Shown here: piece by piece, positions 30,116-50,461 of the stretch | How positions within the stretch are numbered: position 1 is the first letter of the stretch | Layout of the letters: each line of letters starts with the position of its first letter | From: a virus | Lineage: Duplodnaviria > Caudoviricetes | Strand: one strand, 5' to 3' | Length of the DNA: 61,643 bases | Virus record (IMG/VR): IMGVR_UViG_3300037486_000465 | Coordinates: 1-61,643 of that record | Notes under the pieces: generated by a model | Seen by the model: only the letters and a program-made list of their open reading frames with translations | Told to the model about the DNA's origin: nothing | The model's database searches: none | Made by a program: the position numbers and the translations under genes

Positions 30116-31357
30116 TTAAAATAATGATTTAGATTTAATAATTTTTGCTTTTTCTAATTTCATAACATCATCTATAAGATTTTGAAATATAAATTGACTA
30201 TCACAATGATTTCTCGTTATTTCAAAACTACATTCTAAATATTGTTTTTTGAGCGTTGGTTTATTATATATATCGTTTATTTTTTCTACTATTTCACCGA
30301 CATTTGCTAAATCTTTTTTTACAAATAAGCCATATGTATCTAAATCAACAAAATGCTTAGCTGTTTTTTTGCCATTTTCCCAAATATAACAATTTTGTGC
30401 CCAATGATAATCAAACATTGGAACTACCCCTACACCAATTATTTCACATTGAGCATATTCGAAATTGTCTCCATAAGCATCCGCAGAAAGATGATAAAAA
30501 TCTGCACCTACTAAAGATGTGCTTAAGGTTTCCATTCCATCAACATAATCATAAGGTCCAAAGACATAAATATGTTCATAACTTCTATCTGCATTTAGAG
30601 CTGACATTCCAGTTGAAAAGAAATTTTTATCTACCTGAATAATATCATGCTTGGGTATTCTTTTTTTAATATCATCATAAAAGATGTTAAGGGCACCAAG
30701 TGATCTCTCGACACCTTTCATTTCAAGTAATATGTTATTTTGTTTAGCATATGGAAGGAATCCAAACAGTCTATCAGGTTGCTTGAATGTGGCATATCTA
30801 CCAAGGTAGGTAATCTTTTTTACATGATCAGTCTTTCTATATTTTTCTAATTGAGAAAAGTTAAAGCCTACTTGTAATTGTATAAATTTTGATTTAATAT
30901 CGGTTCCAAAAATTTCTACAAGTTTATTATAGAATGGCGATGTAATGCTATGAGAAACTATACCATCACATAAATTACAAAGTTCAAAGAAATTTGCGTT
31001 TCTATGTATTGATGCTATTTTGTGATCATTTTGAAATATAATTTTTTTAGTTTTAATATTTTTCACCATATTAAGAAAGCCATCAATTGCCCATTGAGAA
31101 TGCTTAATACTTGGGACACTATTTATAAAAACATAGTCAAATTCATTTAACACAGTTCCAAATGTACTTATGTTATCTTTTGTTATAACGCTAAATTTGG
31201 GCAAATTTTGCATATTTCTTCTACCCCATTTTTTATCGTCTAGATCATAAACAGTATATTCAATTCCTTTACTTGTAAAAAACTCTGAAAGCTCGATAAT
31301 ATATCTAGTTACACCGGCACCTTCAAAAGATCTTCCTACTACAATTGCTATTTTCAT
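30116..31357 (-). CDS. agt: DNA alpha-glucosyltransferase (T4 AGT-like)
   Basis: GR.FEGAGVT, DKKW.R, INSVP, Q.DH...S..RN, SHS, GR....K, G.ERS and EY..E..G.VP.F are collinear with T4 alpha-gt as recalled. Confidence 0.85.
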   Translation of the reverse strand: MKIAIVVGRSFEGAGVTRYIIELSEFFTSKGIEYTVYDLDDKKWGRRNMQNLPKFSVITKDNISTFGTVLNEFDYVFINSVPSIKHSQWAIDGFLNMVKNIKTKKIIFQNDHKIASIHRNANFFELCNLCDGIVSHSITSPFYNKLVEIFGTDIKSKFIQLQVGFNFSQLEKYRKTDHVKKITYLGRYATFKQPDRLFGFLPYAKQNNILLEMKGVERSLGALNIFYDDIKKRIPKHDIIQVDKNFFSTGMSALNADRSYEHIYVFGPYDYVDGMETLSTSLVGADFYHLSADAYGDNFEYAQCEIIGVGVVPMFDYHWAQNCYIWENGKKTAKHFVDLDTYGLFVKKDLANVGEIVEKINDIYNKPTLKKQYLECSFEITRNHCDSQFIFQNLIDDVMKLEKAKIIKSKSLF

Positions 31358-32127
31358 ATTTGTTGTGTTTTACGTTTCCAATATTCTTTTCTTTTATTAC
31401 TTTGTTTTAAACGTGTTTCTTCAGATATGGGTTTTCTTTTTCTTTGTGATTGTCTTCCTATCTCCCAACCCTCTGATATATAATTTTCTAATTCTTCTTG
31501 TTTAATCTGTTTACTTTTATTTACTTTTACATTTCTAACCCAAACCCTATTTGTTTTATTTTTCTTATATTCTTCTATTTTTTTATCAGCTATTTCTTTT
31601 CCATATTTTATAAACCATATATCATAAAAAGATTTATTTGCCATAGGATTATTTTCTCCTGCGGATTTTTCACCAAGTTTTCGCTTCATTTCATCTGCTT
31701 TTTCTTTTCCATATCTTTCTTCGTAGTTTCCTAAATTTGATATTCTATTTTTTTCTATAGATTTTTTAGAGTGCTTCTTGCCGTACATTGTATTTTTTTC
31801 ACCTCTATGATCTACTGGAATACTTCTAAATAATTCTATGGCGTATTCATAATCTCTTGAACTTATTTCATATTTTCTTTTATTCATAAATGCCATAAAA
31901 TGAAACGCATGATATATTTTATAATTTCCCTGATAAATATATGTTAGTAATTTATGACAAACAAAGTGTTCTCTTGCAGTTAATAAAACTTTATTTTTAA
32001 TACTATCATCGCCTCCTATACATCGAGGAATTATATGATGATCTTCATAATAATTTTCATTGTTTCTAATTCTATTTTGTTTTCTGGCGTTTTCGATTAT
32101 AGAATTATAAACTTGTTGGTGATTCAT
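31354..32127 (-). mobile_element. Free-standing HNH homing endonuclease (Mob-like, NUMOD repeats)
   Basis: EDHHIIPRC.GG.D...N.V.LTAREH...H.LL; G.KN.MYGKKHS, GENNPM, SEETR.K.S; likely start at 32127. Confidence 0.88.
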
Positions 32128-32149
32128 CTTTTTAATAAATTTATTATTT

Positions 32150-32335
32150 TTAATCTTTACTATCAATTAAGTATTCTGCTAAATATATAAGTCCAAGCGT
32201 TACTCCGGCTGCTCCTATTATTAATAAAACTGTTGTTATATCAATAAGAAAAGATAAGGCAGTAAATAAAGCACCTATTATTAATATAAGTATAAACCAT
32301 CCGATAATTTTTTTGATTTTAGTTTTAGTTTTCAT
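32150..32335 (-). CDS. Small two-helix membrane protein
   Basis: Basic N-terminus followed by two hydrophobic segments. Confidence 0.65.
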   Translation of the reverse strand: MKTKTKIKKIIGWFILILIIGALFTALSFLIDITTVLLIIGAAGVTLGLIYLAEYLIDSKD

Positions 32336-32738
32336 TTTTATCTTTTGTTAATAATTCTGGATTTTCATAAATATTTCCGATAACTTCAGGTAATATATTT
32401 TCATTATACGTCCATTTTTCTATATTTACACCATGTGGTCCAAATGTAACAGGATATATTCTTAAATATTCTCCGGCGGGCCCAAAATCTACCATTGCTG
32501 CGACTATATCTTTTTCATAAATTTCTTTATCATTTTTATCATGTAATCCAGTATATTGCATTATATCATAATGCTCTATGTTTTCATCCATTTCTGCTGG
32601 CCACACGTCCCATTTTTCTTCCCATTCTTTTCTGGTAAAGCATAAACTATTGTATTCACCACATAGCCATAAATGATCTAAAAATGTCATTTGCTTTCGT
32701 ATTTTATCCCAAACTCTAAATTTAATCTCTCGATTCAT
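32325..32738 (-). CDS. YopX-family protein
   Basis: REIKFRVWD, MQYTGL.DKN.KEIYE.DI, EVIGNIYENPELL. Confidence 0.92.
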   Translation of the reverse strand: MNREIKFRVWDKIRKQMTFLDHLWLCGEYNSLCFTRKEWEEKWDVWPAEMDENIEHYDIMQYTGLHDKNDKEIYEKDIVAAMVDFGPAGEYLRIYPVTFGPHGVNIEKWTYNENILPEVIGNIYENPELLTKDKNEN

Positions 32739-33132
32739 TTTTGTATTTTTCTCTTAATTCTATTTCAATTTCTGCTGCTCTCTTTAATATTTCTTCCTTC
32801 TTTTCAGGGTATTCTTTTAATTCATAAGAATTACCCAATATTTCACTTTCTTCTGGAAAAGAAGGGTCTATATCATTACAAAAGGGGTGAAATCCTGCAT
32901 CAAAAAATATCACAGTTTCTATACCACGTCTTCCAAATATTATATCGCTTTCGTATATCTCTTTTCCTTTTTTATCTTTTAATCCTGTATATTGAAGCAA
33001 TTCATAGTTATCATTGCCCTCGCCATTTTGCAAATTATATACGTTTCCATTTATATCTATAGATATGTGTGGAGAGTATATAACGAAGCGTTTAAACTCT
33101 TTATCCCAAACTTTAAATTTAATCTCTCTCAT
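32722..33132 (-). CDS. YopX-family protein (second copy)
   Basis: REIKFKVWD, LQYTGLKDKKGKEIYESDI, EILGN.YE. Confidence 0.9.
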   Translation of the reverse strand: MREIKFKVWDKEFKRFVIYSPHISIDINGNVYNLQNGEGNDNYELLQYTGLKDKKGKEIYESDIIFGRRGIETVIFFDAGFHPFCNDIDPSFPEESEILGNSYELKEYPEKKEEILKRAAEIEIELREKYKNESRD

Positions 33133-33133
33133 A

Positions 33134-33436
33134 TTATATTCTTTTAAAGTATCTTTTGTATTTTATTTTTTCGCATTTTGAACATTTCCATTCACTTTTT
33201 GGTGTTTTGCTTTCATAAACATTCCTTATAAATACTAATTCGTGTTTGTCGCACTTAACTTCTTCACCATAATCTATTAAATCACACCAATTAGGAATTT
33301 CATGAACTTTTGTTTCGGACTCAATAGGAACGGGTTTCATAAATGCCTTTCTGCACGATTCTTTACAATTTTCTGCCCAAGAAGGAATAAAAAAAGGACA
33401 TTCATCGCAATTTTTAATTACTATATGTTTATTCAT
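33134..33436 (-). CDS. Cys-rich hypothetical protein
   Basis: CDECPF, IPNWC.L, CSKC. Confidence 0.65.
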   Translation of the reverse strand: MNKHIVIKNCDECPFFIPSWAENCKESCRKAFMKPVPIESETKVHEIPNWCDLIDYGEEVKCDKHELVFIRNVYESKTPKSEWKCSKCEKIKYKRYFKRI

Positions 33437-34242
33437 TATAATAATGGTTTTGATTTAATAGTTTTTTCGTAACTGTACTCTGATTTTATATCTTTGATAT
33501 TAGTTTTTGTTTTACGATCATATCCACACATATTATCAAAATTACTATCAGGAGAATATAATGTCTTAGTATAATTTAAAGATTTGCTTTTTCCGTCTAT
33601 ATCTGAAGTTCCTCCTATTTGATATACACAAAATGGAAAAAGCCCATATCCTTTATATTTTCCTTCAACTATGCCTTCTGGTAATAATCCATCACATGTA
33701 TCATCAAAATCCATTAATTTATCTAAAACTGGTTTATACCCTGCTTTAGTTATTATATATGAATGCATGCCATAAAAACCCATTTTAGAAACATCCCATA
33801 TATGTTCAGATATTTGATATTTTTTATTTAATTTTTGTTCATATGCTATTGCACCTAAATAAATAACCTGCGCATCTTCTGGAACTTCATCTAAAAGTTT
33901 CAATCTATCTGCAAAATCTGGAGATAATATAACATCATCTTCTAATATTAAAATGCCATTTAAATTCATCATCTGAGCATATTTAATAGCAGCCGAATGA
34001 GATATGGCACAACACAATGCACCTACGCTAAAACGAGCTCTTGCATCTTTTCCAAATGAAAAAGCTTTCATTGGTCTTCTGGTTAATGATTTAAGTGCTG
34101 GGTTGTTTATCAATTTGCCGTCAAAGGCAGGAAAAAAATGATATTTAATATTATGTTTTTGTAATTGTTCTTCAACCATAGATTTTCGTTGTGTACTTCT
34201 TTCCAAATTAATCACAACTATCTCATCGAAAAATCTGTTCAT
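33436..34242 (-). CDS. Glycosyltransferase family 25 with C-terminal tail
   Basis: VINLERS..R, FPAFDG, CCAISH, ILEDD, YLG, HSY; ends EKTIKSKPLL. Confidence 0.88.
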   Translation of the reverse strand: MNRFFDEIVVINLERSTQRKSMVEEQLQKHNIKYHFFPAFDGKLINNPALKSLTRRPMKAFSFGKDARARFSVGALCCAISHSAAIKYAQMMNLNGILILEDDVILSPDFADRLKLLDEVPEDAQVIYLGAIAYEQKLNKKYQISEHIWDVSKMGFYGMHSYIITKAGYKPVLDKLMDFDDTCDGLLPEGIVEGKYKGYGLFPFCVYQIGGTSDIDGKSKSLNYTKTLYSPDSNFDNMCGYDRKTKTNIKDIKSEYSYEKTIKSKPLL

Positions 34243-34267
34243 GTGTAAATATATTTAATATTTTTAT

Positions 34268-34296
34268 ATTATACGCATAAGTATGGTTAAAGTTTT
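34268..34296 (-). promoter_or_regulatory. Phage promoter AAACT-N17-TATAA heading the island
   Basis: Minus strand AAAACT-ttaaccatacttatgcg-TATAAT, 26 nt before the ATG at 34242. Confidence 0.7.
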
Positions 34297-34300
34297 GTTA

Positions 34301-34330
34301 AAAACAAAAGGGAATCGAAATTCCCTTTTT
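34301..34330 (-). terminator. Rho-independent terminator
   Basis: Minus strand AAAAGGGAAT-TTCG-ATTCCCTTTTGTTTT right after the stop at 34336. Confidence 0.88.
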
Positions 34331-34335
34331 ATAAT

Positions 34336-35226
34336 TTAGTTATCACCTAAGAATTTTTTAACCTTATTTGCTTTTTCAGTTTCTTTCTTAGCTTTTTCAG
34401 CCTTTTCGGCTTCAATTTTTTCTTGTTCTTTTTTCTGCTTATATTGTGCTATTACTTCTTTCATTGATCCTTTAAACGTATCATTATAAAAAGAATTAAA
34501 ACCCTTTACAACATTATTAGATCCGCATCTAAAAATTTCTTCTCTTCCATCACCAGCTAAATCATAAACTACTAGATAAGTCTGTGGAGATGTAAGATCT
34601 GCAGTAGGCTGTACTGGTTCTTCTAATGGTGTTTCAGTGGGAGCTTCCATAGAATCTTCTGCTGGAGGAGTAGATAAATCTTGCGCCGGAGCGTTTTCGG
34701 CAGGTGTATCTGTAGGTTCTTTAGTAAGAAGATCTTCTTTTTCATCGCCTAAATTACCAAGATCTAAAGCAGGATCTTCAGTTTCTTTAGCTTCAGTAAC
34801 AGGAGTAGTAGGCAAAGCTGTTTGTTCAACTTTAGGAGTAATTTCCTTTCCTTCTATAATTTCTTCTTCTGGTTCTTCTGACGCGCCCGTTCCTCCTTCT
34901 ATACTACCATCTGATAGTGTTTGCGGCGGTAATTCCATAACACCCACAACATAATCACTATTAAATAATTTATATATGTTTCCACCCTGTGTAAAGCTTT
35001 GTTTAGTTTGTTGGTTTTCATCCCAAAATTCCTTAAATTTAAGAATTTCGCCGCCAGCAGCCTTTTTAAATTGATCAAAGTTCTTAGTAATCTTATCTAT
35101 AATAGCTAAGCCATCTTTTTCCTTTGATTGTAATGTCTCTTTATCCATTCCAGCCTTTTCTTCTTCAAATAAGCTAAAAAATTTGTAATCTTCAAATTCT
35201 TGCAGAGATTCACGTACGTGTTTCAT
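34336..35226 (-). CDS. Acidic hypothetical protein, probable virion/internal head protein
   Basis: N-terminal VRESLQEF; Pro/Glu/Thr-rich linker; late-type motif upstream. Confidence 0.7.
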   Translation of the reverse strand: MKHVRESLQEFEDYKFFSLFEEEKAGMDKETLQSKEKDGLAIIDKITKNFDQFKKAAGGEILKFKEFWDENQQTKQSFTQGGNIYKLFNSDYVVGVMELPPQTLSDGSIEGGTGASEEPEEEIIEGKEITPKVEQTALPTTPVTEAKETEDPALDLGNLGDEKEDLLTKEPTDTPAENAPAQDLSTPPAEDSMEAPTETPLEEPVQPTADLTSPQTYLVVYDLAGDGREEIFRCGSNNVVKGFNSFYNDTFKGSMKEVIAQYKQKKEQEKIEAEKAEKAKKETEKANKVKKFLGDN

Positions 35227-35233
35227 AATTCAC

Positions 35234-35255
35234 TATTTTATTTTATATATTCAAA
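35234..35255 (-). promoter_or_regulatory. Putative late promoter motif
   Basis: TTTGAATATATAAAATAAAATA, identical over 22 nt to 54260-54281. Confidence 0.7.
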
Positions 35256-35280
35256 CTTTTTCTATCAGAATATATATAAA
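35253..35280 (+). promoter_or_regulatory. Phage promoter AAACT-N17-TATAA
   Basis: AAACT-ttttctatcagaatata-TATAAA before the ATG at 35299; overlaps a GAATATATA motif. Confidence 0.6.
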
Positions 35281-35298
35281 AAAATAAACATCAATACT

Positions 35299-36072: not shown

Positions 36073-36084
36073 TATAATTATAAT

Positions 36085-37044: not shown

Positions 37045-37053
37045 TATTTAATT

Positions 37054-38653: not shown

Positions 38654-38671
38654 ATATAATAAAAATATTAT

Positions 38672-42465: not shown

Positions 42466-42479
42466 GTTGTTAATAAATA

Positions 42480-42494
42480 AATATATAAAATAAA
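42480..42494 (+). promoter_or_regulatory. Putative late promoter motif
   Basis: AATATATAAAATAAA 9 nt before the ATG at 42503. Confidence 0.6.
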
Positions 42495-42502
42495 TATACG
42501 TT

Positions 42503-43080: not shown

Positions 43081-43107
43081 CATCGCTTAAGATAGTATCT
43101 TTTGCCC

Positions 43108-43135
43108 GACGCTCCTTCTGGAGCGTTTCTTTTTT
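43108..43135 (+). terminator. Rho-independent terminator
   Basis: GACGCTCC-TTCT-GGAGCGTT followed by a T tract. Confidence 0.85.
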
Positions 43136-43145
43136 GTTAAAAATG

Positions 43146-43174
43146 AAAACTTTTATAGCTCTTAAAAATATAAT
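43146..43174 (+). promoter_or_regulatory. Phage promoter AAACT-N17-TATAA heading the DNA-modification operon
   Basis: AAAACT-tttatagctcttaaaaa-TATAAT before the ATG at 43196. Confidence 0.7.
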
Positions 43175-43195
43175 ACTAAATTACAATAATTTAAC

Positions 43196-44410
43196 ATGAG
43201 ATACATTACACATATCCCGTTGGCCGGCGGGTTTGGTTTAGGAAATATGAACATAACTGGAACTGCACCTTTAGCAATTACTTCTTATTCTGCATTTGAA
43301 TCTAATGATAATCTTTTTCGTCGATATTTAAGTAAAAAAGGGTTTGATATCCCATATTATCAAATAGATAAATTAGATTATCATCAAAGTAGATTTCTTT
43401 TAGAAAAATATACCGATATTGATTTTATAACTGCTGTTCCTCCTTGCAACGCGCTTTCGCAAGCTGCTTGTAGAGCTAAAGGTTCTCGAGGTACTGCTGC
43501 ACCAAATGAATGGATGTATAAATCAGCAGAAGTTATTTTACATCATATACGGCCAACAATATACGCCTTTGAAAACGCGCCAGGACTTTTTACATGTAGT
43601 GGAGATGTAGTTCGCGAAAAACTTATAGATATAGGCGAAAATAATGGATATTCAATAACTTTTTATAAAACTAATACCATAAAACACGGTATTCCTCAGT
43701 TTAGACCTCGTACATTTGGAATATTCTTAAAGGGCTTTGGCGCGCCTATTTTGAATTATTATAATAAACCAATGCCTCATATAATAGATTATTTAAAACA
43801 AATTCCTAAAGAAGCAAGTTATCAAGATAAATATATGAATCCTGATTCAAATATAAACGAATATGAAATAACTAAGTTCTTTAAAAAGAAATATGGAGAA
43901 GATTGGAGAAACGAAATCTATAAAACATATAAATTTCATTTAACGTCTTACGATTATTTGAAAAGACAACACTTATTATATGAATTTAAAGATTTTCTTG
44001 AAACACTACCAAATGCATCAATAATAGTTAAAAAGAATCTTGATCACGTTATTAAAAAAACTGATATAGGCAAAAATTTTAGATTAGGATATAGAGTTCT
44101 TGGATTAGATAAAGATCATGTTTATGCAGTTATATCAGAAATGATGAATAGAACTTTACATCCAATTGAAGATAGACTCATTAATATAAGAGAATATATG
44201 CACTTAATGGGATTACCACATGATTATGAACTTGAAAGTGCAAAAGAATATCCTAAAATAACTCAAAATGTACCCGTTAGTACATGCGAAGATATAACGA
44301 CAGAAATAATAGAAATAATAAATGGCAATAGAAAAATATCAAATAGACAAGTTTTAATGCAAGACAATACAAAAGAAACTGAAAATTCAAAAACTATAGC
44401 ATTATTTTAA
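43196..44410 (+). CDS. C5-cytosine DNA methyltransferase-like protein (atypical SAM motifs)
   Basis: PPCN (motif IV), FENAPGL (VI), G.PQ.RPRTF (VIII), HP...R..N.RE; motif I reads IPLAGG and motif X reads ITQNVP. Confidence 0.8.
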   Translation: MRYITHIPLAGGFGLGNMNITGTAPLAITSYSAFESNDNLFRRYLSKKGFDIPYYQIDKLDYHQSRFLLEKYTDIDFITAVPPCNALSQAACRAKGSRGTAAPNEWMYKSAEVILHHIRPTIYAFENAPGLFTCSGDVVREKLIDIGENNGYSITFYKTNTIKHGIPQFRPRTFGIFLKGFGAPILNYYNKPMPHIIDYLKQIPKEASYQDKYMNPDSNINEYEITKFFKKKYGEDWRNEIYKTYKFHLTSYDYLKRQHLLYEFKDFLETLPNASIIVKKNLDHVIKKTDIGKNFRLGYRVLGLDKDHVYAVISEMMNRTLHPIEDRLINIREYMHLMGLPHDYELESAKEYPKITQNVPVSTCEDITTEIIEIINGNRKISNRQVLMQDNTKETENSKTIALF

Positions 44411-44421
44411 ATTATAAGAAT

Positions 44422-44838
44422 ATGGAAGAAACTTATCACAATACTAAAAATTCAGATAGAAATTATGGAAAAAAACGAGAACCGTTAGCATTAGAAAAAT
44501 TCTGTAAAGAAAAATCTCTTTCTTATATACAATCTTCTCATGATGATGATACAAAAAATAAATTTGATGCATACATTAATGACTACCCAACTAGCGTAAA
44601 ATGTTCAGAGAGATGGCCCAATGGAAGTTTTCCTAAAAAGGATTTGATTCCTGAAAATAAATCTGTATATGTTTTATTTGAAAATAACGTATATGAAAAC
44701 TATTTAGTTTGGTTTGAATCATTAAAAGAATTCATCAATGAAGGAAAGGCGGTTGATCGGGGAGCTTATTATGTAATAGATCAAAAAGATTTATACGATT
44801 TACAGGAATTAACAAAAAAATTACATCCTATAATATAA
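44422..44838 (+). CDS. Hypothetical protein, possibly PD-(D/E)xK-like
   Basis: E...D....D......SVK pattern; weak. Confidence 0.55.
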   Translation: MEETYHNTKNSDRNYGKKREPLALEKFCKEKSLSYIQSSHDDDTKNKFDAYINDYPTSVKCSERWPNGSFPKKDLIPENKSVYVLFENNVYENYLVWFESLKEFINEGKAVDRGAYYVIDQKDLYDLQELTKKLHPII

Positions 44839-44850
44839 AAATACTTTCTA

Positions 44851-45444
44851 ATGAATAAATTAATAGTTATCTGCGGAGGCGACCGCCTCGGAAAAGGAAC
44901 ATTAATTAAAGGTTTATGCGAAACTTTTGATTATAAAAATATAACTATTCGTCATTGCGATAAACCGCCCAAAGATCTATTAAATGATCAAATTTTAGAT
45001 TATCAATTAAAAGCGTTTGAACAAGAATTTGAATTAATACATTATGTTCAAACAATGAATAGAAAATTTATGTATCATGATAATATAATTATTTATGATA
45101 GATTTCATCTAGGAGAATTTGTATATGGGCAATTATTTAGAAATTATGATGCAAATTTATTGAAAACTAAAATATTAGCGTTAGAAGAAAAAAATTTAAG
45201 AAACAATATATGGTTTGAGCCGTATCTTATAACTTTAACTGCTGACTCTGAATTCTTTTTAAATAAAGAAGATGGAAATTCATTTTCAAAAAATTTAGAA
45301 GAGAAAACAAAAGAGCTTCAATTATTTAAAGAAACTCATGATTTTAGTGTAATTAAAAATAAATTGTTAGTTAAAGTTGATGAAAATGGTTCTTTTAGAT
45401 CAAAAGAAGAAATATTAAATGAAGTAATAAATTTTATAAAATGA
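44851..45444 (+). CDS. dNMP/thymidylate kinase-like protein
   Basis: GGDRLGKGT P-loop; DRFHLGE.VYG. Confidence 0.85.
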   Translation: MNKLIVICGGDRLGKGTLIKGLCETFDYKNITIRHCDKPPKDLLNDQILDYQLKAFEQEFELIHYVQTMNRKFMYHDNIIIYDRFHLGEFVYGQLFRNYDANLLKTKILALEEKNLRNNIWFEPYLITLTADSEFFLNKEDGNSFSKNLEEKTKELQLFKETHDFSVIKNKLLVKVDENGSFRSKEEILNEVINFIK

Positions 45445-45523
45445 ACAAATTTATAGTAAAAGATAATGTGCCTACCTGCGCAAAGAAAGGGCTACCGCCA
45501 AAACCTATAAAAAACAATAAAAT

Positions 45524-46600
45524 ATGGTTGCTGAAAATAATAAAATAGCACTAATTTCAGGCATAACAGGGCAAGATGGTTCGTATTTAGCTGAATTACT
45601 TCTTTCAAAGGGATATAAAGTTCATGGAATAATTCGTAGAGCATCTACATTTAATACTGCTAGATTAGAACACATTTATGAAGATCCTCATATTCCAGAT
45701 CATCACTTAACGTTACATTATGGAGATGTATCGGATATATTATCGGTAGAACAAATAATGATGAACGTTAAGCCCGATGAAATATATCATTTAGGCGCAC
45801 AATCTCATGTTAAAGTTTCTTTTGAATTACCTGCTTATACAGCGCAAGTAGATGCATTTGGCACGTTGAATATGCTTGAAGCTATGAGAAAACACTGTCC
45901 CAATGCTAGATTTTATAATGCAGCAACATCAGAATTATTTGGAAAAGCTGAACAGATTCCACAAAATGAAAATACACCAATACATCCGCGAAGTCCTTAT
46001 GGAGTAGCAAAAGTATATGCTTATTGGATAACTAAAAATTATCGAGAAGCATATAATATGTTTGCTGTAAATGGAATTCTTTTTAATCATGAAAGCGAAA
46101 GACGAGGAGGCACATTTGTAACTGCAAAAATTATAAACGGCTTAATAGATTATCTTAAAAATGGTACACCGTTTTATTTGGGAAATATTTACGCAAAACG
46201 AGATTGGGGATATGCTCCAGAATATGTTGAATGTATGTGGAGAATGCTACAACAAGATAGTCCAGAAGATTTTGTAATTGGAACCGGCGAAACACATACA
46301 ATAAAAGAATTTGTAGATGAATGCTTAGAATATTTGCCTAAGCTAGAAATTTCTATTAATTATTCATATAAAAGATTTAGGTGGAGAGAAGACGAAAAAA
46401 ATAGATGGATTCTTTGGGATGTAAAAGATTGGAAATTAGTAATTGGTATTGATGAAAAATATTATAGACCGGCAGAAGTAGACGTATTACAAGCAGATTC
46501 TTCAAAAGCAAAAGAAAAATTAGGTTGGGCCCCAAAAACAACATTCAAAGATCTTGTTAAAATTATGATTGAATATAGAATTAAACACGGTAAAATTTAA
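45524..46600 (+). CDS. gmd: GDP-mannose 4,6-dehydratase
   Basis: [51 protein letters not shown]. Confidence 0.96.
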
Positions 46601-46605
46601 CAACA

Positions 46606-47055
46606 ATGGACAAAAAACAAGTTATTTACTTAATTGGGAGTTTGAGAAATGAAAAAATTCCGTTTATTGCTAATAATATTAGAAAATTAGGATTCGAAGT
46701 TTTTGATGATTGGTTCTCTCCCGGTCCTGAAGCTGATGAATTTTGGAGAACATATGAAAAAAACAGGGGAAGCTCATATAAACAGGCGTTAAATAATTGG
46801 GCCGGAAAACATATATATGAATTTGATAAACATCATATTGATAGAGCAGATATTGGTGTTTTATATATGCCGGCGGGTAAAAGTGGACATCTAGAATTAG
46901 GATATATGATAGGACAAGGCAAAAAATGCTTTGTATTATTTGATGAAGAGCCCGAAAGATGGGACGTGATGTACCAGTTTGCAGAAGCGGTGTGCTTTTC
47001 ATTTGACGAATTAAAAGAAGAACTAATAAAATTTACTAGTGATGCAAAAAAATAG
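46606..47055 (+). CDS. Nucleoside 2-deoxyribosyltransferase-fold protein (possible dNMP glycosidase)
   Basis: IYL.GS, D...I..AD, P.GKSGHLELGY..G.GK. Confidence 0.7.
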   Translation: MDKKQVIYLIGSLRNEKIPFIANNIRKLGFEVFDDWFSPGPEADEFWRTYEKNRGSSYKQALNNWAGKHIYEFDKHHIDRADIGVLYMPAGKSGHLELGYMIGQGKKCFVLFDEEPERWDVMYQFAEAVCFSFDELKEELIKFTSDAKK

Positions 47056-48019
47056 TAAAATATACGTAACAGGTTGTGATGGATTAGTAGGTTCAGCGGT
47101 AGTTCGCGAACTGCAAAAACAAGGATACACAGATATTCTTCGTTCATCAAAACATAAAGCTTATCATAATGGAACAGTTTATGAAGACGATTATGATTTA
47201 CGTTACGAAGAAAATGTAACTAAATTGTTTATTCAATTTGGTCCAGAATATGTTATAAATTGCGCTGGAAAAGTAGGAGGAATTAATGCAAATAATACTC
47301 AAAGTGCAGAATTTATTCGAGATAATATTATGATACAAACAAATATCATTAATATGTGTTATACGTATAGTGTTAAAAAACTATTGTTTCTTGGAAGCTC
47401 CTGTATTTATCCTAAATTATGTCCACAACCAATTAAAGAAGAATATTTATTAACATCATCATTAGAAGAAAGTAATATTGGGTACGCCATTGCAAAAATA
47501 TCTGGTCTTATAATGTGTCGTATGTATAATAAACAATATGGAAGTAATTTCATCTCGGCAATGCCTACAAATCTTTACGGTCCTAATGATAATTTTAATT
47601 TAAAGAATTCTCATGTTTTGCCGGCGCTAATACGAAAATTTCATGAAGCAAAAATTCGTGGTGATGAAAGTATTGAATTATGGGGAACTGGAACCGCAAA
47701 AAGAGAATTTTTATTTGTTGATGATTTATCCGAAGCACTAGTATTTTTAATGAATAATTATAACGATTGCAAAGAACACATTAATATTGGAATGGGTGAA
47801 GATATAATTATTAAAGATTTAGCCAATTTAATTAAAGAAATAGTTGATTATGATGGTAAAATTTTCTGGAATGTAGATTATCCAGACGGAACTCCTCAAA
47901 AATTATTAGATGTATCTAAAATTAATAATCTTGGTTGGAAGGCAAAAATTCCATTAGAAGATGGATTAAGAAAAACATACAAGTGGTTCGTTGAAAATTA
48001 TGAAAATATAAGAAAATGA
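47042..48019 (+). CDS. fcl: GDP-L-fucose synthase
   Basis: G..GLVGS, AGKVGGI.AN, LGSSCIYP, YAIAK, PTNLYGP.DNF, SHV.PAL, WGTG...REF. Confidence 0.95.
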   Translation: MQKNSKIYVTGCDGLVGSAVVRELQKQGYTDILRSSKHKAYHNGTVYEDDYDLRYEENVTKLFIQFGPEYVINCAGKVGGINANNTQSAEFIRDNIMIQTNIINMCYTYSVKKLLFLGSSCIYPKLCPQPIKEEYLLTSSLEESNIGYAIAKISGLIMCRMYNKQYGSNFISAMPTNLYGPNDNFNLKNSHVLPALIRKFHEAKIRGDESIELWGTGTAKREFLFVDDLSEALVFLMNNYNDCKEHINIGMGEDIIIKDLANLIKEIVDYDGKIFWNVDYPDGTPQKLLDVSKINNLGWKAKIPLEDGLRKTYKWFVENYENIRK

Positions 48020-48216
48020 AAACAGCAAAAGATTTGGCATATAAAGCATATTGTGACTCTATTAAAGAAATAGGTACAATAACAGATGAAGGAAAAATTA
48101 AAGAACGATTTGAAAATTGGTGGAAGGAATGGTATCATAGAGAAGATCATAAAGATAGTTTTCATCATGTGCATTCAGTCTTTATAGATCTTAAATCTTA
48201 TATACAAGCAGAATAA
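48016..48216 (+). CDS. Small hypothetical protein
   Basis: ATGA-coupled ORF. Confidence 0.65.
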   Translation: MKTAKDLAYKAYCDSIKEIGTITDEGKIKERFENWWKEWYHREDHKDSFHHVHSVFIDLKSYIQAE

Positions 48217-48227
48217 AAATTAAAAAA

Positions 48228-48491
48228 ATGAAAATTCTAAACAATTGGAAATTTAAAAGACATTTTAGTAATAATTTTTGGTATCGATACGGAATAATGT
48301 TTCCGTGGGAACGTAGAAAATATTTGCAAATAGGAATATTTGGGTTTATATATATGTTTCAGTGGGGTAGTTATGAAAATATCTATACTACAATATTATG
48401 TCCTGCTTGTGGCACGGTTGAAAATAAAAGAATTAAACTTTCTTGCGCATGTTGCAAAGGAGAAGGATATATTAAAAAATATAAAAAATGA
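48228..48491 (+). CDS. Hypothetical protein with CxxCG...CxxCxGxG zinc motif
   Basis: CPACG, CACCKGEG. Confidence 0.6.
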   Translation: MKILNNWKFKRHFSNNFWYRYGIMFPWERRKYLQIGIFGFIYMFQWGSYENIYTTILCPACGTVENKRIKLSCACCKGEGYIKKYKK

Positions 48492-48991
48492 GCTTAACCA
48501 CAAACAAAAATGACCCGAGATTAAAAGAAGGTCAGAAAAACGAAACAGGCCAACACGAAATATATTTAGTGCTTTCGGAAGAAGAAAGAGCAAAGGGATT
48601 TCTTCGTCCAGTGAGAGATTCTTATGTGCATGTTGGCAGAAAACAACGTGGATTGGAAATTCATGAAATACTTAGTGAAGAAGACAAAAAAGAAATGAAA
48701 GAAAAATATCCCGAAGATAAAAGGGACTATGTGGCGATATTAACTGTTATGAAAAAAGAAGATGGTAGTTTTCTTGGTGGATCGTATGTTACGCAGGAAG
48801 AATTGGACTCCTGGAAATCTGGCACGCTAATAGATGGTTGTGGAACTGTAACGATAATGGGAAGAGAGCTAGCTGAAACATACGCATGTTTTCCAAACTT
48901 TTATAGCGCAACATATTGCTGCGGTTGCGGAAAACATTTACCTGTTGAAGAATTTGTATGGGAAGGAACAAATGAAATAGTAGGATCATAA
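48488..48991 (+). CDS. Conserved phage hypothetical protein
   Basis: YLVLSEEERAKGF.RPVR..YVH ... CG..T.M...AETYA..P.FY.ATYC..C..H.PV.EF.W. Confidence 0.75.
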   Translation: MSLTTNKNDPRLKEGQKNETGQHEIYLVLSEEERAKGFLRPVRDSYVHVGRKQRGLEIHEILSEEDKKEMKEKYPEDKRDYVAILTVMKKEDGSFLGGSYVTQEELDSWKSGTLIDGCGTVTIMGRELAETYACFPNFYSATYCCGCGKHLPVEEFVWEGTNEIVGS

Positions 48992-49012
48992 AAATTATAA
49001 AGGTATATAAAA

Positions 49013-49171
49013 ATGAAAAAAATTACACTCATCGTTGAGGATGAAAACGGAAAACAAGTAACTGCTTATTTCGATTCTGAAAAAATAAAAGTTATGAAAG
49101 ATACATACGGTACAAATGTACTTGAACAAATGTATAATGTGTTGATAGAAGAATTAAAACAAATTAAATGA
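49013..49171 (+). CDS. Small hypothetical protein (52 aa, not in ORF track)
   Basis: MKKITLIVEDENGKQVTAYFDSEKIKVMKDTYGTNVLEQMYNVLIEELKQIK; ATGA overlap with the next gene. Confidence 0.7.
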   Translation: MKKITLIVEDENGKQVTAYFDSEKIKVMKDTYGTNVLEQMYNVLIEELKQIK

Positions 49172-49506
49172 AAAAATATTTCAATACGGAAGAAAAAGCA
49201 ATTAAGCATCTGGAATATAGAAAACAGTATGCCTATTCTCGTATTGAAAAAAGTGGAGATAAAATTTTAGGAGACGCATCATTCATATATAAAAATAAAA
49301 ATAATAAATGGGTAGTTTTCGTACAGATATTAACAGATAAAATGATGCATGATATTGAAGAAGTACAATCTATGTTTGATTCTATTCATCCATTAATTCC
49401 ATTTACATCAGACGAACAGATACTTAAAAGTGAACAACGAATTAAAAAATTAGGCAAGAAATATAAAACTCTTGACATTGAAGATTATACAATAAATATA
49501 TGGTAA
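49168..49506 (+). CDS. Hypothetical protein
   Basis: Coupled ORF. Confidence 0.65.
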   Translation: MKKYFNTEEKAIKHLEYRKQYAYSRIEKSGDKILGDASFIYKNKNNKWVVFVQILTDKMMHDIEEVQSMFDSIHPLIPFTSDEQILKSEQRIKKLGKKYKTLDIEDYTINIW

Positions 49507-49796
49507 AAGAAGAAAAAATATTAACGCAAACAACTAAATATCGCAAATATTGTGATGACTGCGGAAAAGAAATTACAAGAGGATTGGCTTGTAGTGTCGC
49601 TTTATGCGAATATTGCAAAAAAGATTTATGTGAAAAATGTATAGGCTACGAAGAAGAAACTTGGGGAGATTTTAGAACAGTTTATTGTAAAACCTGTTGG
49701 GAATTAGGTAATGAATATAGGCCTAAAATTGAAGAATTACATAATGAAATTGATAAATTATATAAAGAATGGCAAGATAAATGTAAAAATAAATGA
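49500..49796 (+). CDS. Zinc-finger hypothetical protein
   Basis: CDDC, CEYC, CEKC, CKTC. Confidence 0.7.
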   Translation: MVKEEKILTQTTKYRKYCDDCGKEITRGLACSVALCEYCKKDLCEKCIGYEEETWGDFRTVYCKTCWELGNEYRPKIEELHNEIDKLYKEWQDKCKNK

Positions 49797-50461
49797 AAGT
49801 AAAAGACATTAGACAACAATTTGTACAAAAGTACATAGATAAAGATTTTGAAGTAGATAAATATGGGGGCAAAACTATAGATTTAAATTGCGTTCAATTT
49901 GAAGCTGATGAAAATTATATTTTTGGAGAACCGAATGATGATTACATTAGACGAGAATTGACATGGTATTTATCTCAATCTTTGAATGTTAATGACATTG
50001 AAAACACTCCTAAAATTTGGAAGAAAGTAGCAGATCCAGATGGATTTATAAATTCAAATTATGGTTGGTGTATCTTTAGTAAAGAAAACGGAAACCAATA
50101 TGATAACTGCTTAAATGAACTTAAAAATAATAGAAGTTCAAGAAGAGGAACAATGATTTATAATCGTCCTGAAATGTGGATAGATTATAACAAGAATGGA
50201 CGTAGTGACTTCATGTGTACCTACGCAGTACAATTTTTAATAAGACATAATATCCTATGGTCATATGTTTTGATGCGCTCGAATGACGCCTGGGCTGGAT
50301 ATCGCAATGATTACGCTTGGCACAAATATGTGCTTAATAAACTAGCGAATGATTTAGAAATAGAAAAAACTATGATGATATGGAACTCTGGTAGTTTACA
50401 TTTATATGATAGGCAATTCTATTTATTAGATCAATATATTGTTGCAAATAAAACTATTTAG
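49793..50461 (+). CDS. dCMP hydroxymethyltransferase (T4 gp42-like)
   Basis: DF.VDK.G.KT, REL.WY.S.SL.V.DI..TPKIW, INSNYGW, SRRG.MIY.RP, DFMCT, MRSND...G.RNDYAW (Asp specifies dCMP), GSLH.Y. Confidence 0.92.
   Translation: MKVKDIRQQFVQKYIDKDFEVDKYGGKTIDLNCVQFEADENYIFGEPNDDYIRRELTWYLSQSLNVNDIENTPKIWKKVADPDGFINSNYGWCIFSKENGNQYDNCLNELKNNRSSRRGTMIYNRPEMWIDYNKNGRSDFMCTYAVQFLIRHNILWSYVLMRSNDAWAGYRNDYAWHKYVLNKLANDLEIEKTMMIWNSGSLHLYDRQFYLLDQYIVANKTI

What the first reader, a model, noticed from the sequence alone, without database searches (positions are those of the whole stretch)
30116..50461. Candidate multi-step hmC DNA hypermodification system beyond T4 glucosylation
Seen: a gp42-like dCMP hydroxymethylase (RND Asp), an AGT-like DNA glycosyltransferase, a dNMP kinase, an NDT-fold protein, an atypical C5-MTase and Gmd/Fcl. 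All except AGT lie in one co-oriented run behind the 43146 promoter, and AGT sits behind a promoter of the same class (34268). Established: gp42, a kinase and AGT give glucosyl-hmC in T4. Inference: this phage builds a more complex base, such as a disaccharide or fucosylated hmC, as protection against restriction and CRISPR.
Basis: partly seen in the sequence, partly recalled or inferred. Interest (0 to 1): 0.85.

Follow-up and report, generated by a model that had tools for sequence, protein, structure and literature searches.

The report
Jumbo-phage hmC DNA sugar-modification super-locus
A fragment of a roughly 400-kb uncultured phage carries the T4-type genes for putting hydroxymethylcytosine and a first sugar into its DNA, next to a very large, strain-variable sugar-building gene island that may extend that sugar into a fucose-containing chain, although the island could decorate virion proteins instead.

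Summary
The listed genes are real. They are a T4 gp42-type dCMP hydroxymethylase with every diagnostic residue, a full-length AGT homologue, three GT25 paralogues, a C5-MTase with PCN/ENA motifs, a Tmk-fold kinase, Gmd, Fcl and a weak NDT-like protein. Both promoter sites (34268, 43148) share one motif and are conserved in a complete 405-kb relative.

AGT is the head of a ~33-kb co-oriented array (1108-34242, minus strand) with at least 9 glycosyltransferase-like genes, including a GT10 fucosyltransferase, and about 25 sugar-tailoring genes. The array ends at the major capsid gene, and its content differs between relatives.

For a DNA glycan:
- 34 of 38 relatives found through GT25b have an AGT-family (30) or BGT-family (4) gene just upstream.
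- Gmd-Fcl sits between the kinase and the hydroxymethylase in two diverged lineages.
- No membrane glycan machinery was found.

Against:
- 4 of 38 relatives lack both DNA transferases.
- The complete relative has no Fcl.
- Capsid adjacency is conserved.

Glycosyl-hmC DNA is very likely (~0.85). A fucosylated oligosaccharide on DNA is plausible (~0.4). Virion glycosylation is the main rival. This is a new variant of a published kind of system.

The parts
49793..50461 (+). dCMP hydroxymethylase (T4 gp42 type; hmdCMP synthase)
   Evidence: 55-56% identical to T-even gp42. Matches 1b49 at E=2.3e-70. The alignment shows the catalytic Cys (DFMCT), Asp at the ThyA-L143 position, Asp kept at the ThyA-D169 position (MRSND) and Asp at the ThyA-N177 position (RND). 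The residue rules come from PMC13326640 sections 24 and 28.
44851..45444 (+). Tmk-fold kinase, candidate hmdCMP kinase
   Evidence: phrog_761 at 7e-9. P-loop GGDRLGKGT and a DRF motif. The model matches thymidylate kinases at TM 0.55-0.58. Conserved next to the TS homologue in relatives.
43196..44410 (+). C5-cytosine methyltransferase-like protein with PCN/ENA motifs; role unresolved
   Evidence: PF00145 at 80.6 bits. Motifs seen. 75% identical in G001. Absent at this position in G007.
43108..43174 (+). Terminator hairpin plus class-B promoter-like motif ahead of the hmC arm
   Evidence: Conserved in G001 and G007.
45524..46600 (+). GDP-mannose 4,6-dehydratase (Gmd)
   Evidence: TIGR01472 at 486 bits, above the 415 cutoff. 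Pfam 3e-130.
46606..47055 (+). NDT-like protein; not conserved in relatives; role unknown
   Evidence: phrog_12607 at 2.7e-18. Pfam below cutoff. No hit in the G001 region.
47039..48019 (+). GDP-L-fucose synthase (Fcl), probable
   Evidence: NF047922 at 421 bits, below the 500 cutoff, and by far the best hit. A 59-61% homologue holds the same position in G007.
34268..34329 (-). Terminator hairpin plus class-B promoter-like motif ahead of GT25a, AGT and the island
33436..34242 (-). GT25 glycosyltransferase a
   Evidence: PF01755 at 90.2 bits. EDD motif invariant.
30116..31357 (-). AGT-family DNA glycosyltransferase (first sugar on hmC)
   Evidence: 80% identical in G001.
28702..29436 (-). GT25 glycosyltransferase b, the most conserved island gene
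   Evidence: PF01755 at 29.2 bits. 63-85% orthologues in 39 viral contigs.
12429..13298 (-). GT10 alpha-1,3-fucosyltransferase homologue
   Evidence: FucT_N at 45 bits and GT10 at 39.5 bits. H. pylori FucT 2nzw at E=2.3e-20. Present in 5 of 5 relatives' records searched.
6770..7522 (-). GT25 glycosyltransferase c
   Evidence: PF01755 at 46.2 bits.
1108..28332 (-). Variable sugar island. It holds 3 GT2-like proteins, a galactosyltransferase-like protein, DUF3431, 3 FkbM and other methyltransferases, a sugar C-methyltransferase, B12- and SPASM-type radical SAM enzymes, a DegT aminotransferase, a UDP-sugar dehydrogenase, 4 SDR epimerase/reductases, an NTP-transferase, a PfkB kinase, a HAD phosphatase and a split transketolase.
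   Evidence: Pfam. Paralogy. Content differs from G001 and other relatives.
3..1049 (+). 3' part of the T4 gp23-type major capsid protein gene; left boundary of the island
   Evidence: PF07068 at 1e-29. Open at the 5' end. The adjacency is conserved in relatives.

Best explanation
The window is about 15% of an uncultured jumbo phage of roughly 400 kb. The finding lies in a ~50-kb block between the head and baseplate gene modules. The block consists of two divergent arms, and each arm starts with the same promoter-like motif.

Arm 1 (43196-51414, plus strand) makes the modified nucleotide. The gp42-type enzyme converts dCMP to 5-hydroxymethyl-dCMP. The Tmk-fold kinase phosphorylates it. Host enzymes and the phage polymerase then put hmC into DNA. 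The enzyme identity is shown by homology and diagnostic residues; the flux is inferred.

Arm 2 (34242 down to 1108, minus strand) starts with GT25a and the AGT homologue. The AGT homologue transfers the first hexose onto hmC in duplex DNA, as inferred from family membership.

My best reading of the next step is that the conserved neighbours act on that DNA sugar. These are GT25b, the GT10 fucosyltransferase and GT25c. GDP-fucose would come from Gmd/Fcl, which are encoded inside arm 1. The product would be a short fucose-containing oligosaccharide on hmC. The remaining, strain-variable part of the island would supply and tailor further sugars through methylation, amination and C-methylation. 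The result would be lineage-specific DNA glycans that escape modification-dependent nucleases.

My estimates are: hmC plus at least one sugar, about 0.85; two or more sugars including fucose on DNA, about 0.4; the whole island serving DNA, about 0.25.
For: Enzyme identities:
- The gp42 type carries all four diagnostic residues and is not the D169N 5-hydroxy-dCMP synthase type. The Asp residues at the D169 and N177 positions are invariant in 11 of 11 aligned clade TS homologues.
- AGT aligns with T4 AGT over its full length.
- GT10 matches H. pylori FucT at 2e-20.
- Gmd passes its equivalog cutoff and Fcl is the clear best hit.

Linkage:
- AGT lies inside the same minus-strand array as GT25a, GT25b, GT10 and GT25c.
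- Of 38 evaluable viral contigs found through GT25b alone, 30 have an AGT-family gene and 4 have a T4 BGT-family gene within about 3.3 kb upstream on the same strand.
- The BGT homologue scores 68.9 bits on PF09198 and matches 1bgt at E=4e-35.
- So two different families of hmC-DNA glucosyltransferase occupy one slot next to GT25b-GT10.

Gmd/Fcl placement:
- The order is kinase-Gmd-x-Fcl-...-TS homologue in the window and also in G007. G007's TS is only 36-39% identical, and G007 has BGT instead of AGT.

Regulation and cell location:
- The class-B motif precedes both arms here and in G001 and precedes the nucleotide arm in G007.
- None of 86 window proteins has more than two hydrophobic segments, so there is no Wzx, Wzy or WecA-like protein.

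Precedent:
- Phage gene clusters install di- and trisaccharides on 5hmC, and their secondary transferases resemble LPS enzymes (bioRxiv 10.1101/2023.12.21.572611: abstract and sections 8-9 read).
- Tri-arabosyl and tri-hexosyl cytosines with phage-encoded NDP-sugar synthesis are described (PMC13326640: abstract and sections 24, 28 read).
Against: - 4 of the 38 GT25b-ascertained contigs have GT25b-GT10-GT25c but no AGT or BGT in the covered flank (one of the four has only 2.3 kb of upstream sequence). G006 has neither in its 132 kb.
- AGT (retaining in T4, giving an alpha link) and BGT (inverting in T4, giving a beta link) would offer different anomers to a GT25b that is 64-66% identical between the lineages. 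The stereochemistry is recalled.
- The complete relative G001 has Gmd inside the island, 6 kb past GT10, and no Fcl anywhere.
- The island ends at the major capsid gene in every relative whose flank is covered.
- Several relatives carry a capsid-protein paralogue between AGT and GT25b.
- About 35 island genes far exceed any described DNA-glycan pathway.
- No paper found places fucose on DNA.
- Distant GT25 homologues in 39 other viral contigs have no TS, AGT or BGT neighbour.
- No dCTPase-like MazG gene was found in the window or in G001.
- Everything here is inferred from sequence. No chemistry was observed.
Confidence: 0.42

Rival explanations
1. Only the AGT homologue acts on DNA, giving plain hexosyl-hmC as in T4. 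The rest of the island (GT25b, GT10, GT25c, GT2-like enzymes, methyltransferases and NDP-sugar enzymes, fed by Gmd/Fcl) builds an O-glycan on virion proteins. Candidate acceptors are the major capsid protein or a Ser/Thr-repeat baseplate or fibre protein. This would resemble glycosylated mycobacteriophage and chlorovirus capsids.
For: - The island abuts the gp23-type capsid gene in the window, G001, G006 (L058/L059), L062 and G009.
- A capsid paralogue sits beside AGT in G001, G005, G009 and others.
- The capsid protein has an Ser/Thr/Ala/Gly-rich segment that varies between relatives while the rest is highly conserved.
- A protein of at least 914 aa carries about 16 copies of an 18-aa Ser/Thr-rich repeat at 60784-61641.
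- GT25b-GT10-GT25c persists in 4 of 38 contigs that lack AGT and BGT.
- There is no membrane machinery, so the acceptor is soluble.
- The size and the many O-methyltransferases fit giant-virus capsid glycans (recalled).
- Virion glycosylation in mycobacteriophages is cited in PMC12619734 (passages read).
Against: - 34 of 38 contigs have AGT or BGT in the slot just upstream of GT25b.
- Gmd-Fcl is embedded in the nucleotide arm in two lineages.
- The island's only detected upstream motif is class B, shared with the hmC arm. It is not the class-A motif found before the baseplate genes; the capsid gene carries only a class-A-like variant.
- Capsid adjacency may simply reflect that the whole 50-kb block sits between the head and baseplate modules.
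Confidence: 0.35
2. The island remodels the host cell surface (LPS, capsule or other glycans) during infection, as proposed for the 'LPS gene' clusters of T4-like cyanophages. It would be unrelated to phage DNA.
For: Gmd-Fcl shows 64-67% nucleotide similarity to the Gmd/Fcl pairs of cyanophages such as P-SSM2, S-SKS1 and S-SRM01. GT25 and GT10 are LOS/LPS-type families (Pfam descriptions).
Against: No flippase, polymerase or initiating lipid-carrier transferase was found, and no multi-pass membrane protein is among the 86 proteins scanned. The tight, conserved linkage to AGT or BGT and to the hmC genes is unexplained by this reading.
Confidence: 0.1
3. The DNA is not hmC-substituted, or only partly. 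The TS homologue or the AGT homologue would then have another substrate or product, and the C5-MTase would supply the cytosine modification.
For: No dCTPase-like (MazG) gene was found in the window or G001. A C5-MTase with an intact catalytic Cys is conserved in the AGT lineage and would be pointless on fully substituted DNA. TS homologues can have unexpected chemistry (PMC13326640).
Against: All diagnostic residues match the hydroxymethylase type and not the hydroxylase type. The protein is 55% identical to T4 gp42. No Tet/JBP hit was found, although the control genomes did not ring either, so that search is inconclusive.
Confidence: 0.06

Closest known systems
T-even phage glucosyl-hmC pathway (T4 gp42, gp1, alpha-GT, beta-GT; gentiobiosyl-hmC in T2/T6)
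   Same: The gp42-type hydroxymethylase is 55% identical with the same active-site residues. An AGT-family transferase is present here and a BGT-family transferase in a sister lineage. Modification is pre-replicative at the nucleotide level and is followed by glycosylation on DNA.
   Different: - The kinase is Tmk-fold and not T4 gp1-like; the PDB sequence search returned no nucleotide kinase other than thymidylate kinases.
- No MazG-family dCTPase candidate was found.
- The DNA transferase is embedded in a ~33-kb sugar island with GT25, GT10 and NDP-sugar genes.
- The genome is about 400 kb with 28% GC.
- I could not confirm any relation between these GT25 proteins and the second transferase of T2/T6. 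tblastn found GT25b and GT25a relatives only in Lak and other huge phages.
Phage DNA-glycan biosynthetic gene clusters of Pyle et al. (bioRxiv 10.1101/2023.12.21.572611; thymidylate-synthase- or TET-associated GT-A/GT-B clusters giving mono- to trisaccharides on 5hmC)
   Same: A ThyS homologue, a GT-B DNA transferase, secondary LPS-like transferases and epimerases lie in one neighbourhood. The idea that LPS-type transferases were repurposed for DNA also fits.
   Different: - Neither 'fucos' nor 'GT25' occurs in that text.
- This island is an order of magnitude larger.
- It varies between close relatives.
- It includes GDP-fucose synthesis.
- That paper's supplementary contig lists could not be seen, so this clade may already be in their dataset.
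Arabinosyl-5-hydroxycytosine systems of RB69 and DLP3, and hexosyl-5hoC of RL38JI (PMC13326640)
   Same: A TS homologue, a dNMP kinase, several DNA glycosyltransferases and phage-encoded NDP-sugar synthesis give up to three sugars per cytosine.
   Different: Those TS homologues carry Asn at the ThyA-D169 position and make 5-hydroxy-dCMP. Here Asp is kept (MRSND), which is the hydroxymethylase signature. The sugars and transferase families also differ.
Virion glycosylation clusters (mycobacteriophages; chlorovirus and mimivirus capsid or fibril glycans) and cyanophage 'LPS' gene clusters
   Same: They combine many glycosyltransferases, O-methyltransferases and Gmd/Fcl next to structural genes. 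The Gmd/Fcl pair here is similar at the DNA level to cyanophage pairs.
   Different: Those systems have no hmC synthase or AGT/BGT embedded in the cluster. The acceptor here is untested.

Membership tests
T4 gp42 dCMP hydroxymethylase (hmdCMP synthase) | Thymidylate-synthase fold with close sequence similarity to T4 gp42 | tested here: met
   1b49 at E=2.3e-70 over residues 2-216. 55-56% identity to T-even gp42.
T4 gp42 dCMP hydroxymethylase (hmdCMP synthase) | Catalytic Cys; Asp at the ThyA-N177 position (dCMP specificity); Asp or Glu at the ThyA-L143 position (water access, hydroxymethyl product) | tested here: met
   SDFMCT and YRNDYAW in the alignment with T4 gp42. Rules taken from PMC13326640 section 24.
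T4 gp42 dCMP hydroxymethylase (hmdCMP synthase) | Asp retained at the ThyA-D169 position (Asn marks 5-hydroxy-dCMP synthases) | tested here: met
   MRSND in the window protein. This Asp is invariant in 11 of 11 aligned clade homologues. Rule taken from PMC13326640 section 28.
T4 gp42 dCMP hydroxymethylase (hmdCMP synthase) | Makes 5-hydroxymethyl-dCMP from dCMP and methylene-tetrahydrofolate | not testable with these tools
   Needs an enzyme assay or nucleoside LC-MS.
AGT (T4 DNA alpha-glucosyltransferase, Pfam PF11440) | Family HMM above the curated cutoff and full-length alignment to T4 AGT | tested here: met
   44.7 bits against 25. 1xv5 at E=3e-18 over residues 1-398. The only PDB hits are the T4 AGT chains. 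The DH and E..E positions that align with T4 Asp115 and Glu306/311 are conserved; their catalytic role is recalled.
AGT (T4 DNA alpha-glucosyltransferase, Pfam PF11440) | Transfers glucose from UDP-glucose to hmC in duplex DNA | not testable with these tools
   Indirect support only: a BGT homologue takes its slot in a sister lineage.
T4 gp1-type dNMP kinase | Sequence similarity to T4 gp1 | tested here: not met
   The PDB sequence search returned only thymidylate kinases, at E=0.07.
Thymidylate-kinase-fold nucleotide kinase | P-loop, DR(Y/F/H) motif and Tmk fold | tested here: inconclusive
   GGDRLGKGT in the window and GKST in relatives, plus DRF. Pfam, NCBIfam and PHROG hits are all below or near cutoffs. 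The model has pLDDT 74 and matches Tmk structures at TM 0.55-0.58, E~1e-4.
C5-cytosine DNA methyltransferase (PF00145) | Family HMM above cutoff with motifs I, IV (PC), VI (E), VIII (R.R) and X | tested here: met
   80.6 bits against 22. Motifs LAGGFGLG, PPCN, ENA, QFRPR and QNVPV are present. The NCBIfam dcm model scores 52 against a cutoff of 100.
C5-cytosine DNA methyltransferase (PF00145) | Part of the hmC-glycan pathway | tested here: not met
   It is conserved only in the AGT lineage. G007 has unrelated ORFs at that position.
GDP-L-fucose pathway (Gmd + Fcl) | Equivalog-level HMM matches | tested here: met
   Gmd scores 486 bits against 415. Fcl scores 421 bits against 500, so it is below the cutoff but remains the top hit at 2e-126.
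Nucleoside 2-deoxyribosyltransferase fold | Pfam family above cutoff | tested here: not met
   PF05014 scores 22.2 against 28.8 and PF15891 scores 17.8 against 30. phrog_12607 matches at 2.7e-18 over the full length. PDB hits are insignificant.
GT25 (LOS beta-1,4-galactosyltransferase-type) glycosyltransferases | Family HMM above cutoff; acidic EDD motif | tested here: met
   90.2, 46.2 and 29.2 bits against 24. S-H and E-D-D are invariant in 10 of 10 aligned sequences. Donor and acceptor are not testable.
GT10 alpha-1,3/4-fucosyltransferase | N- and C-domain HMMs above cutoff; similarity to H. pylori FucT including the ...EN...TEK... segment | tested here: met
   45 bits against 27.2 and 39.5 against 23.9. 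2nzw at E=2.3e-20 with FEN and TEK aligned. The role of those residues is recalled.
Phage DNA-glycan gene cluster (ThyS-associated, Pyle et al.) | TS homologue, DNA-type glycosyltransferase and secondary transferases in one conserved neighbourhood | tested here: met
   Synteny is conserved over about 57 kb with G001. 34 of 38 GT25b contigs carry AGT or BGT.
Phage DNA-glycan gene cluster (ThyS-associated, Pyle et al.) | Oligosaccharide demonstrably attached to the base | not testable with these tools
   Needs LC-MS of nucleosides.

The most novel reading that the evidence does not exclude
This jumbo-phage clade carries an O-antigen-like, hypervariable 'DNA serotype' island. Every hmC would be glycosylated by AGT or BGT and then extended by a conserved GT25-GT10 pair. 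That is the same enzyme pairing that builds Lewis-x-type Gal(beta1,4)[Fuc(alpha1,3)]Glc(NAc) in Helicobacter LPS (recalled). Lineage-specific methylated, aminated and C-branched sugars would be added on top. This would be the most complex natural DNA modification known, and it would diversify under pressure from modification-dependent nucleases.
Probability: 0.25. Interest if true: 0.92.

Novelty: new variant of a known kind. Interest (0 to 1): 0.7.

Why it matters
Phage DNA glycans decide whether restriction enzymes, CRISPR nucleases and type IV (modification-dependent) systems can cut the genome. They are also sources of enzymes for labelling 5hmC.

Known systems add one to three simple sugars. 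If this island acts on DNA, it would extend DNA chemistry to fucosylated and heavily tailored oligosaccharides. It would also show that DNA glycans can vary between close relatives the way bacterial O-antigens do.

If the island instead glycosylates the capsid, it would be an unusually large protein-glycosylation system for a tailed phage, sitting beside an hmC pathway.

Either outcome can be tested with a handful of cloned genes on T4 gt-minus hmC DNA.

Tried and rejected
- Generic sigma-70 promoter scan. Sites are not enriched over shuffles (108 against 112.7), so I used conserved motif and position instead.
- Tet/JBP search in the window and G001. There was no hit, but the family rang in none of the control genomes, so this is inconclusive.
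- MazG-type dCTPase. None was found in the window or G001. The T4 gp56 family itself was not searched.
- BGT in G001. Only an 18-bit, sub-threshold hit far from the locus.
- My recollection that the T2/T6 second glucosyltransferase might be GT25-like. tblastn of GT25b and GT25a against 50,697 phage records hit only Lak and other huge phages (15 and 4 records). Not confirmed, so dropped.
- ESM Atlas for two conserved unknowns. 34336-35226 has no usable fold (pLDDT 0.42). 26639-27370 belongs to a virus-only family with no named relative.
- Isoelectric points. AGT 8.3, MTase 8.7, GT25a 8.4, GT25c 8.8, GT25b 6.1, GT10 7.6. These do not discriminate between acceptors.
- Natural experiment with G006. 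It has no AGT or BGT, and its TS homologue has Arg at the L143 position, RSCD, and Asp at the N177 position. The product cannot be read from sequence, so the test stays open.
- NDT-like protein against the PDB. Only insignificant hits (E 0.3-0.8), among them CMP/hydroxymethyl-CMP hydrolase MilB. No claim is made.
- 'Moraphage' paper (PMC12619734; abstract and passages read). It describes a different or undetermined lineage with genomes up to 307 kb and makes no hmC claim.
- Literature searches for fucose on hmC DNA found no such paper. The contig tables of Pyle et al. and the alignments of Lee et al. may already list this clade or its enzymes.
- One structure job, two protein-search tools, complex prediction, the sequencing-run tools and Rfam were not used.

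Full report
WHAT THE WINDOW IS. The window is the whole record held (61,643 bases, 28% GC, no terminal repeat). CheckV rates it about 15% complete. Its closest relative in IMG/VR is G001, a complete 405-kb phage genome with direct terminal repeats. G001 positions 248.7-305.7 kb are syntenic with window positions 58.9 kb down to 0.2 kb.

The window's left end is the 3' part of a T4 gp23-type major capsid gene (PF07068 at 1e-29). The right end holds a baseplate-wedge-like gene and large unknown proteins. The finding therefore lies in a ~50-kb block between the head and baseplate modules of a jumbo phage.

CHECK OF THE OBSERVATION. All the named genes exist.
- ORF 49793-50461 is 55-56% identical to T-even gp42 and matches T4 dCMP hydroxymethylase at E=2.3e-70.
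- A 2026 paper shows that some 'gp42 homologues' (RB69, DLP3) are flavin-dependent 5-hydroxy-dCMP synthases, marked by Asn at the ThyA-D169 position (PMC13326640, sections 24 and 28 read). I therefore checked that position. The window protein has MRSND, so Asp is kept. It also has the catalytic Cys, Asp at the L143 position and Asp at the N177 position ('RND').
- In an alignment of 11 clade homologues, the Cys and both Asp residues (D169 and N177 positions) are invariant.
- AGT (30116-31357) passes its Pfam cutoff and aligns with T4 AGT over its whole length.
- The MTase has all the C5-MTase motifs but with PCN and ENA.
- The kinase is Tmk-like only weakly by sequence. A model built from four sequences (pLDDT 74) matches thymidylate and deoxynucleoside kinases.
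- Gmd passes its equivalog cutoff. Fcl is the clear best hit but falls below its cutoff.
- The NDT-like protein is below the Pfam cutoffs but matches a PHROG.

Each copy follows a terminator hairpin, and both are conserved at the orthologous sites of G001. A copy also precedes the kinase-Gmd-Fcl-TS run of G007. The pattern was derived from these sites, so the shuffle control (mean 0.27, max 2) is weak. The positional conservation is the real evidence.

A second motif, AATATATAAAWTAAA, occurs 4 times in the window against 0.07 in shuffles. It precedes other genes, including the one at 54287 at the start of the baseplate-side genes.

AGT is not isolated. It is an early member of a gene-dense minus-strand array running from 34242 to 1108. 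Pfam scans and paralogy analysis show that the array contains:
- three GT25 paralogues;
- a GT10 alpha-1,3-fucosyltransferase homologue at 12429-13298, which matches H. pylori FucT at 2e-20;
- three GT2-like proteins, a galactosyltransferase-like protein and DUF3431;
- three FkbM and several other methyltransferases, and a sugar C-methyltransferase;
- B12- and SPASM-type radical SAM enzymes;
- a DegT aminotransferase and a UDP-sugar dehydrogenase;
- four further SDR epimerase/reductases;
- a nucleotidyltransferase, a PfkB kinase, a HAD phosphatase and a split transketolase.

None of the 86 window proteins has more than two hydrophobic segments, so no flippase, polymerase or lipid-carrier transferase is encoded. 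Gmd/Fcl therefore have an obvious client, the GT10 enzyme. The open question is what that glycan is attached to.

COMPARATIVE EVIDENCE. The island is bounded by conserved genes, but its content changes between relatives. The shared genes are AGT (80% identical in G001), GT25a (60%), GT25b (68%), a GT2-like protein, GT10 (62%; present in 5 of 5 records searched), the C-methyltransferase (74%), one SDR, Gmd (59%) and a few unknowns. Most other genes differ. The shortest island seen is in G009, with this order: AGT, capsid paralogue, small ORFs, GT25b, small ORFs, GT10, GT25c, an unknown, an FkbM methyltransferase, and then the capsid gene.

I searched viral contigs with a GT25 alignment, which does not bias the sample towards AGT. 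The results were:
- 39 contigs have a GT25b orthologue (45-85% identity), and 38 of them have a usable upstream flank.
- 30 of the 38 have an AGT-family gene within about 3.3 kb upstream on the same strand. Two of these are only 24-26% identical.
- 4 of the 38 have a T4 beta-glucosyltransferase homologue in that position instead. It scores 68.9 bits on PF09198 and matches 1bgt at E=4e-35.
- 4 of the 38 have neither. One of these four has only 2.3 kb of upstream sequence.

In the smaller GT10-ascertained set of 11 loci, the split is 5 AGT, 2 BGT, 3 none and 1 with too little flank. AGT and BGT are different families. What they have in common, in T4, is glucosylating hmC in DNA. Their exchange at one slot next to GT25b-GT10 argues that the slot is a DNA-glycosylation function tied to its neighbours.

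Distant GT25 homologues in 39 other viral contigs, several of them from giant viruses, have no TS, AGT or BGT nearby. The link is therefore specific to this clade.

GMD/FCL. In G001 the gap between the kinase and the hydroxymethylase is only 1.2 kb. Gmd lies inside the island, 6 kb past GT10, and no Fcl exists anywhere in that complete genome. Taken alone, this would make Gmd-NDT-Fcl look like a local insertion in the window.

G007 changes that reading. It is a 260-kb fragment that has BGT instead of AGT, a TS homologue only 36-39% identical but with the same Asp/Asp/Asp signature, and no MTase at this position. Its gene order is kinase, Gmd, an 84-aa ORF, Fcl, a 176-aa ORF and the TS homologue, behind a class-B motif. 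The placement of Gmd-Fcl inside the nucleotide arm thus recurs in a diverged lineage.

The NDT-like gene is not part of that conserved pattern. It has no homologue in the G001 region compared, and G007 has an unrelated 84-aa ORF in its place.

WEIGHING. The points in favour of a multi-sugar, fucose-containing DNA modification are:
- AGT shares a gene array with GT25b, GT10 and GT25c.
- AGT and BGT exchange at one slot.
- 34 of 38 GT25b contigs carry one of the two.
- Gmd-Fcl lies in the nucleotide arm in two lineages.
- The two arms share a promoter motif.
- No membrane machinery is encoded.
- Published systems show LPS-like transferases extending sugars on 5hmC and phage-encoded NDP-sugar synthesis for DNA glycans.

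The points against are:
- GT25b-GT10-GT25c persists without AGT or BGT in 4 of 38 contigs, including G006, which has neither gene in its 132 kb.
- The alpha and beta first sugars expected from AGT and BGT would be different acceptors for near-identical GT25b enzymes (recalled stereochemistry). One way out is that GT25b itself acts directly on hmC, as T4's two transferases do in parallel.
- G001 lacks Fcl.
- The island always ends at the capsid gene, and several relatives carry a capsid paralogue between AGT and GT25b.
- The capsid protein has a variable Ser/Thr/Ala/Gly-rich segment.
- A protein of at least 914 aa carries about 16 Ser/Thr-rich 18-aa repeats nearby.
- About 35 sugar genes are far more than any known DNA glycan needs.

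Capsid adjacency is weakened as an argument because the whole block sits between the head and baseplate modules.

VERDICT. My estimates are as follows:
- hmC-substituted DNA carrying at least one sugar: about 0.85.
- Two or more sugars including fucose on DNA: about 0.4.
- The whole island devoted to DNA: about 0.25.
- Virion-protein glycosylation by the island, with AGT alone acting on DNA: about 0.35.

The role of the C5-MTase is unresolved, because a C5 that already carries hydroxymethyl cannot be methylated. It may act on host DNA or on residual unmodified cytosines. It is not a conserved member across the clade.

KNOWN OR NEW. The general kind of system is published: a thymidylate-synthase homologue plus DNA glycosyltransferases plus secondary transferases. 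I found no paper that places fucose, GT10 or GT25 enzymes on DNA, or that describes a hypervariable island of this size attached to an hmC module (searches; text searches). Supplementary tables of the two key papers could not be opened and may list these contigs. I rate this a new variant of a known kind, with high interest if the DNA reading holds.

Noticed in passing
window 31354-32166 (-): An HNH/NUMOD3 homing-endonuclease-like gene sits directly upstream of AGT inside the array. Homologous copies lie at other places in relatives (G001 about 257.4, 271.1 and 295.9 kb), which suggests a mobile element.
   Followed up: partly
window 38672-39373 (+) and 40840-42009 (+): A SET-domain protein and a lysine-2,3-aminomutase-like radical SAM enzyme lie between the two arms. 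They are conserved in relatives (67-81%). Aminomutase-like radical SAM enzymes take part in thymidine hypermodification in other phages (recalled). No link was tested here.
   Followed up: no
window 35237-35251(-), 42480-42494(+), 51443-51457(+), 54264-54278(+): A second, sharper promoter-like motif, AATATATAAAWTAAA, lies a few bases upstream of start codons. It occurs 4 times here (shuffle mean 0.07) and 9 times in 100 kb of G001. It contains a T4-late-like TATAAATA-type core (recalled).
   Followed up: partly
window 58900-61641 (+), repeats 60784-61641: An ORF of at least 914 aa with an open 3' end finishes in about 16 tandem copies of an 18-residue Ser/Thr/Glu-rich unit (54-nt period). It lies next to baseplate-like genes and is a possible O-glycosylation target or fibre.
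   Followed up: partly
G001 278990-279691; L063 5877-6854; also L078, L082, L093, L094: A shortened paralogue (about 30% identity) of the major capsid protein lies between AGT and GT25b in several relatives but not in the window.
   Followed up: partly
window 3-1049 (+) and relatives' capsid genes: The gp23-type capsid protein is about 80% conserved overall, but it has an Ser/Thr/Ala/Gly-rich insertion that differs strongly between relatives.
   Followed up: partly
window 9335-12426 (-): A nucleotidyltransferase, a PfkB-like kinase, a HAD phosphatase and a split transketolase stand in a row. This looks like a self-contained route to an unusual activated (keto- or heptose-type) sugar.
   Followed up: no
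window 7458-8189 (-): A ~243-aa ORF fills what looked like a 666-nt gap in the island. It overlaps the next gene by about 65 nt and was dropped by my greedy ORF picker.
   Followed up: partly
L067 1105-1863 (G006) and L067 170-1102: The AGT/BGT-less relative G006 has a TS homologue with RLPC and RSCD motifs and Asp at the N177 position. That combination is dCMP-specific with Arg at the L143 position, so the product is unknown. It stands next to a 310-aa P-loop kinase with a long C-terminal extension.
   Followed up: partly
L062 1150-2292 and L061 8143-9285: In two AGT/BGT-less relatives a SAM synthetase gene lies directly upstream of GT25b. This fits heavy methylation of the island's product.
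   Followed up: no
window 32325-33132 (-): Two tandem YopX-family paralogues (32% identical) lie between GT25a and AGT.
   Followed up: no
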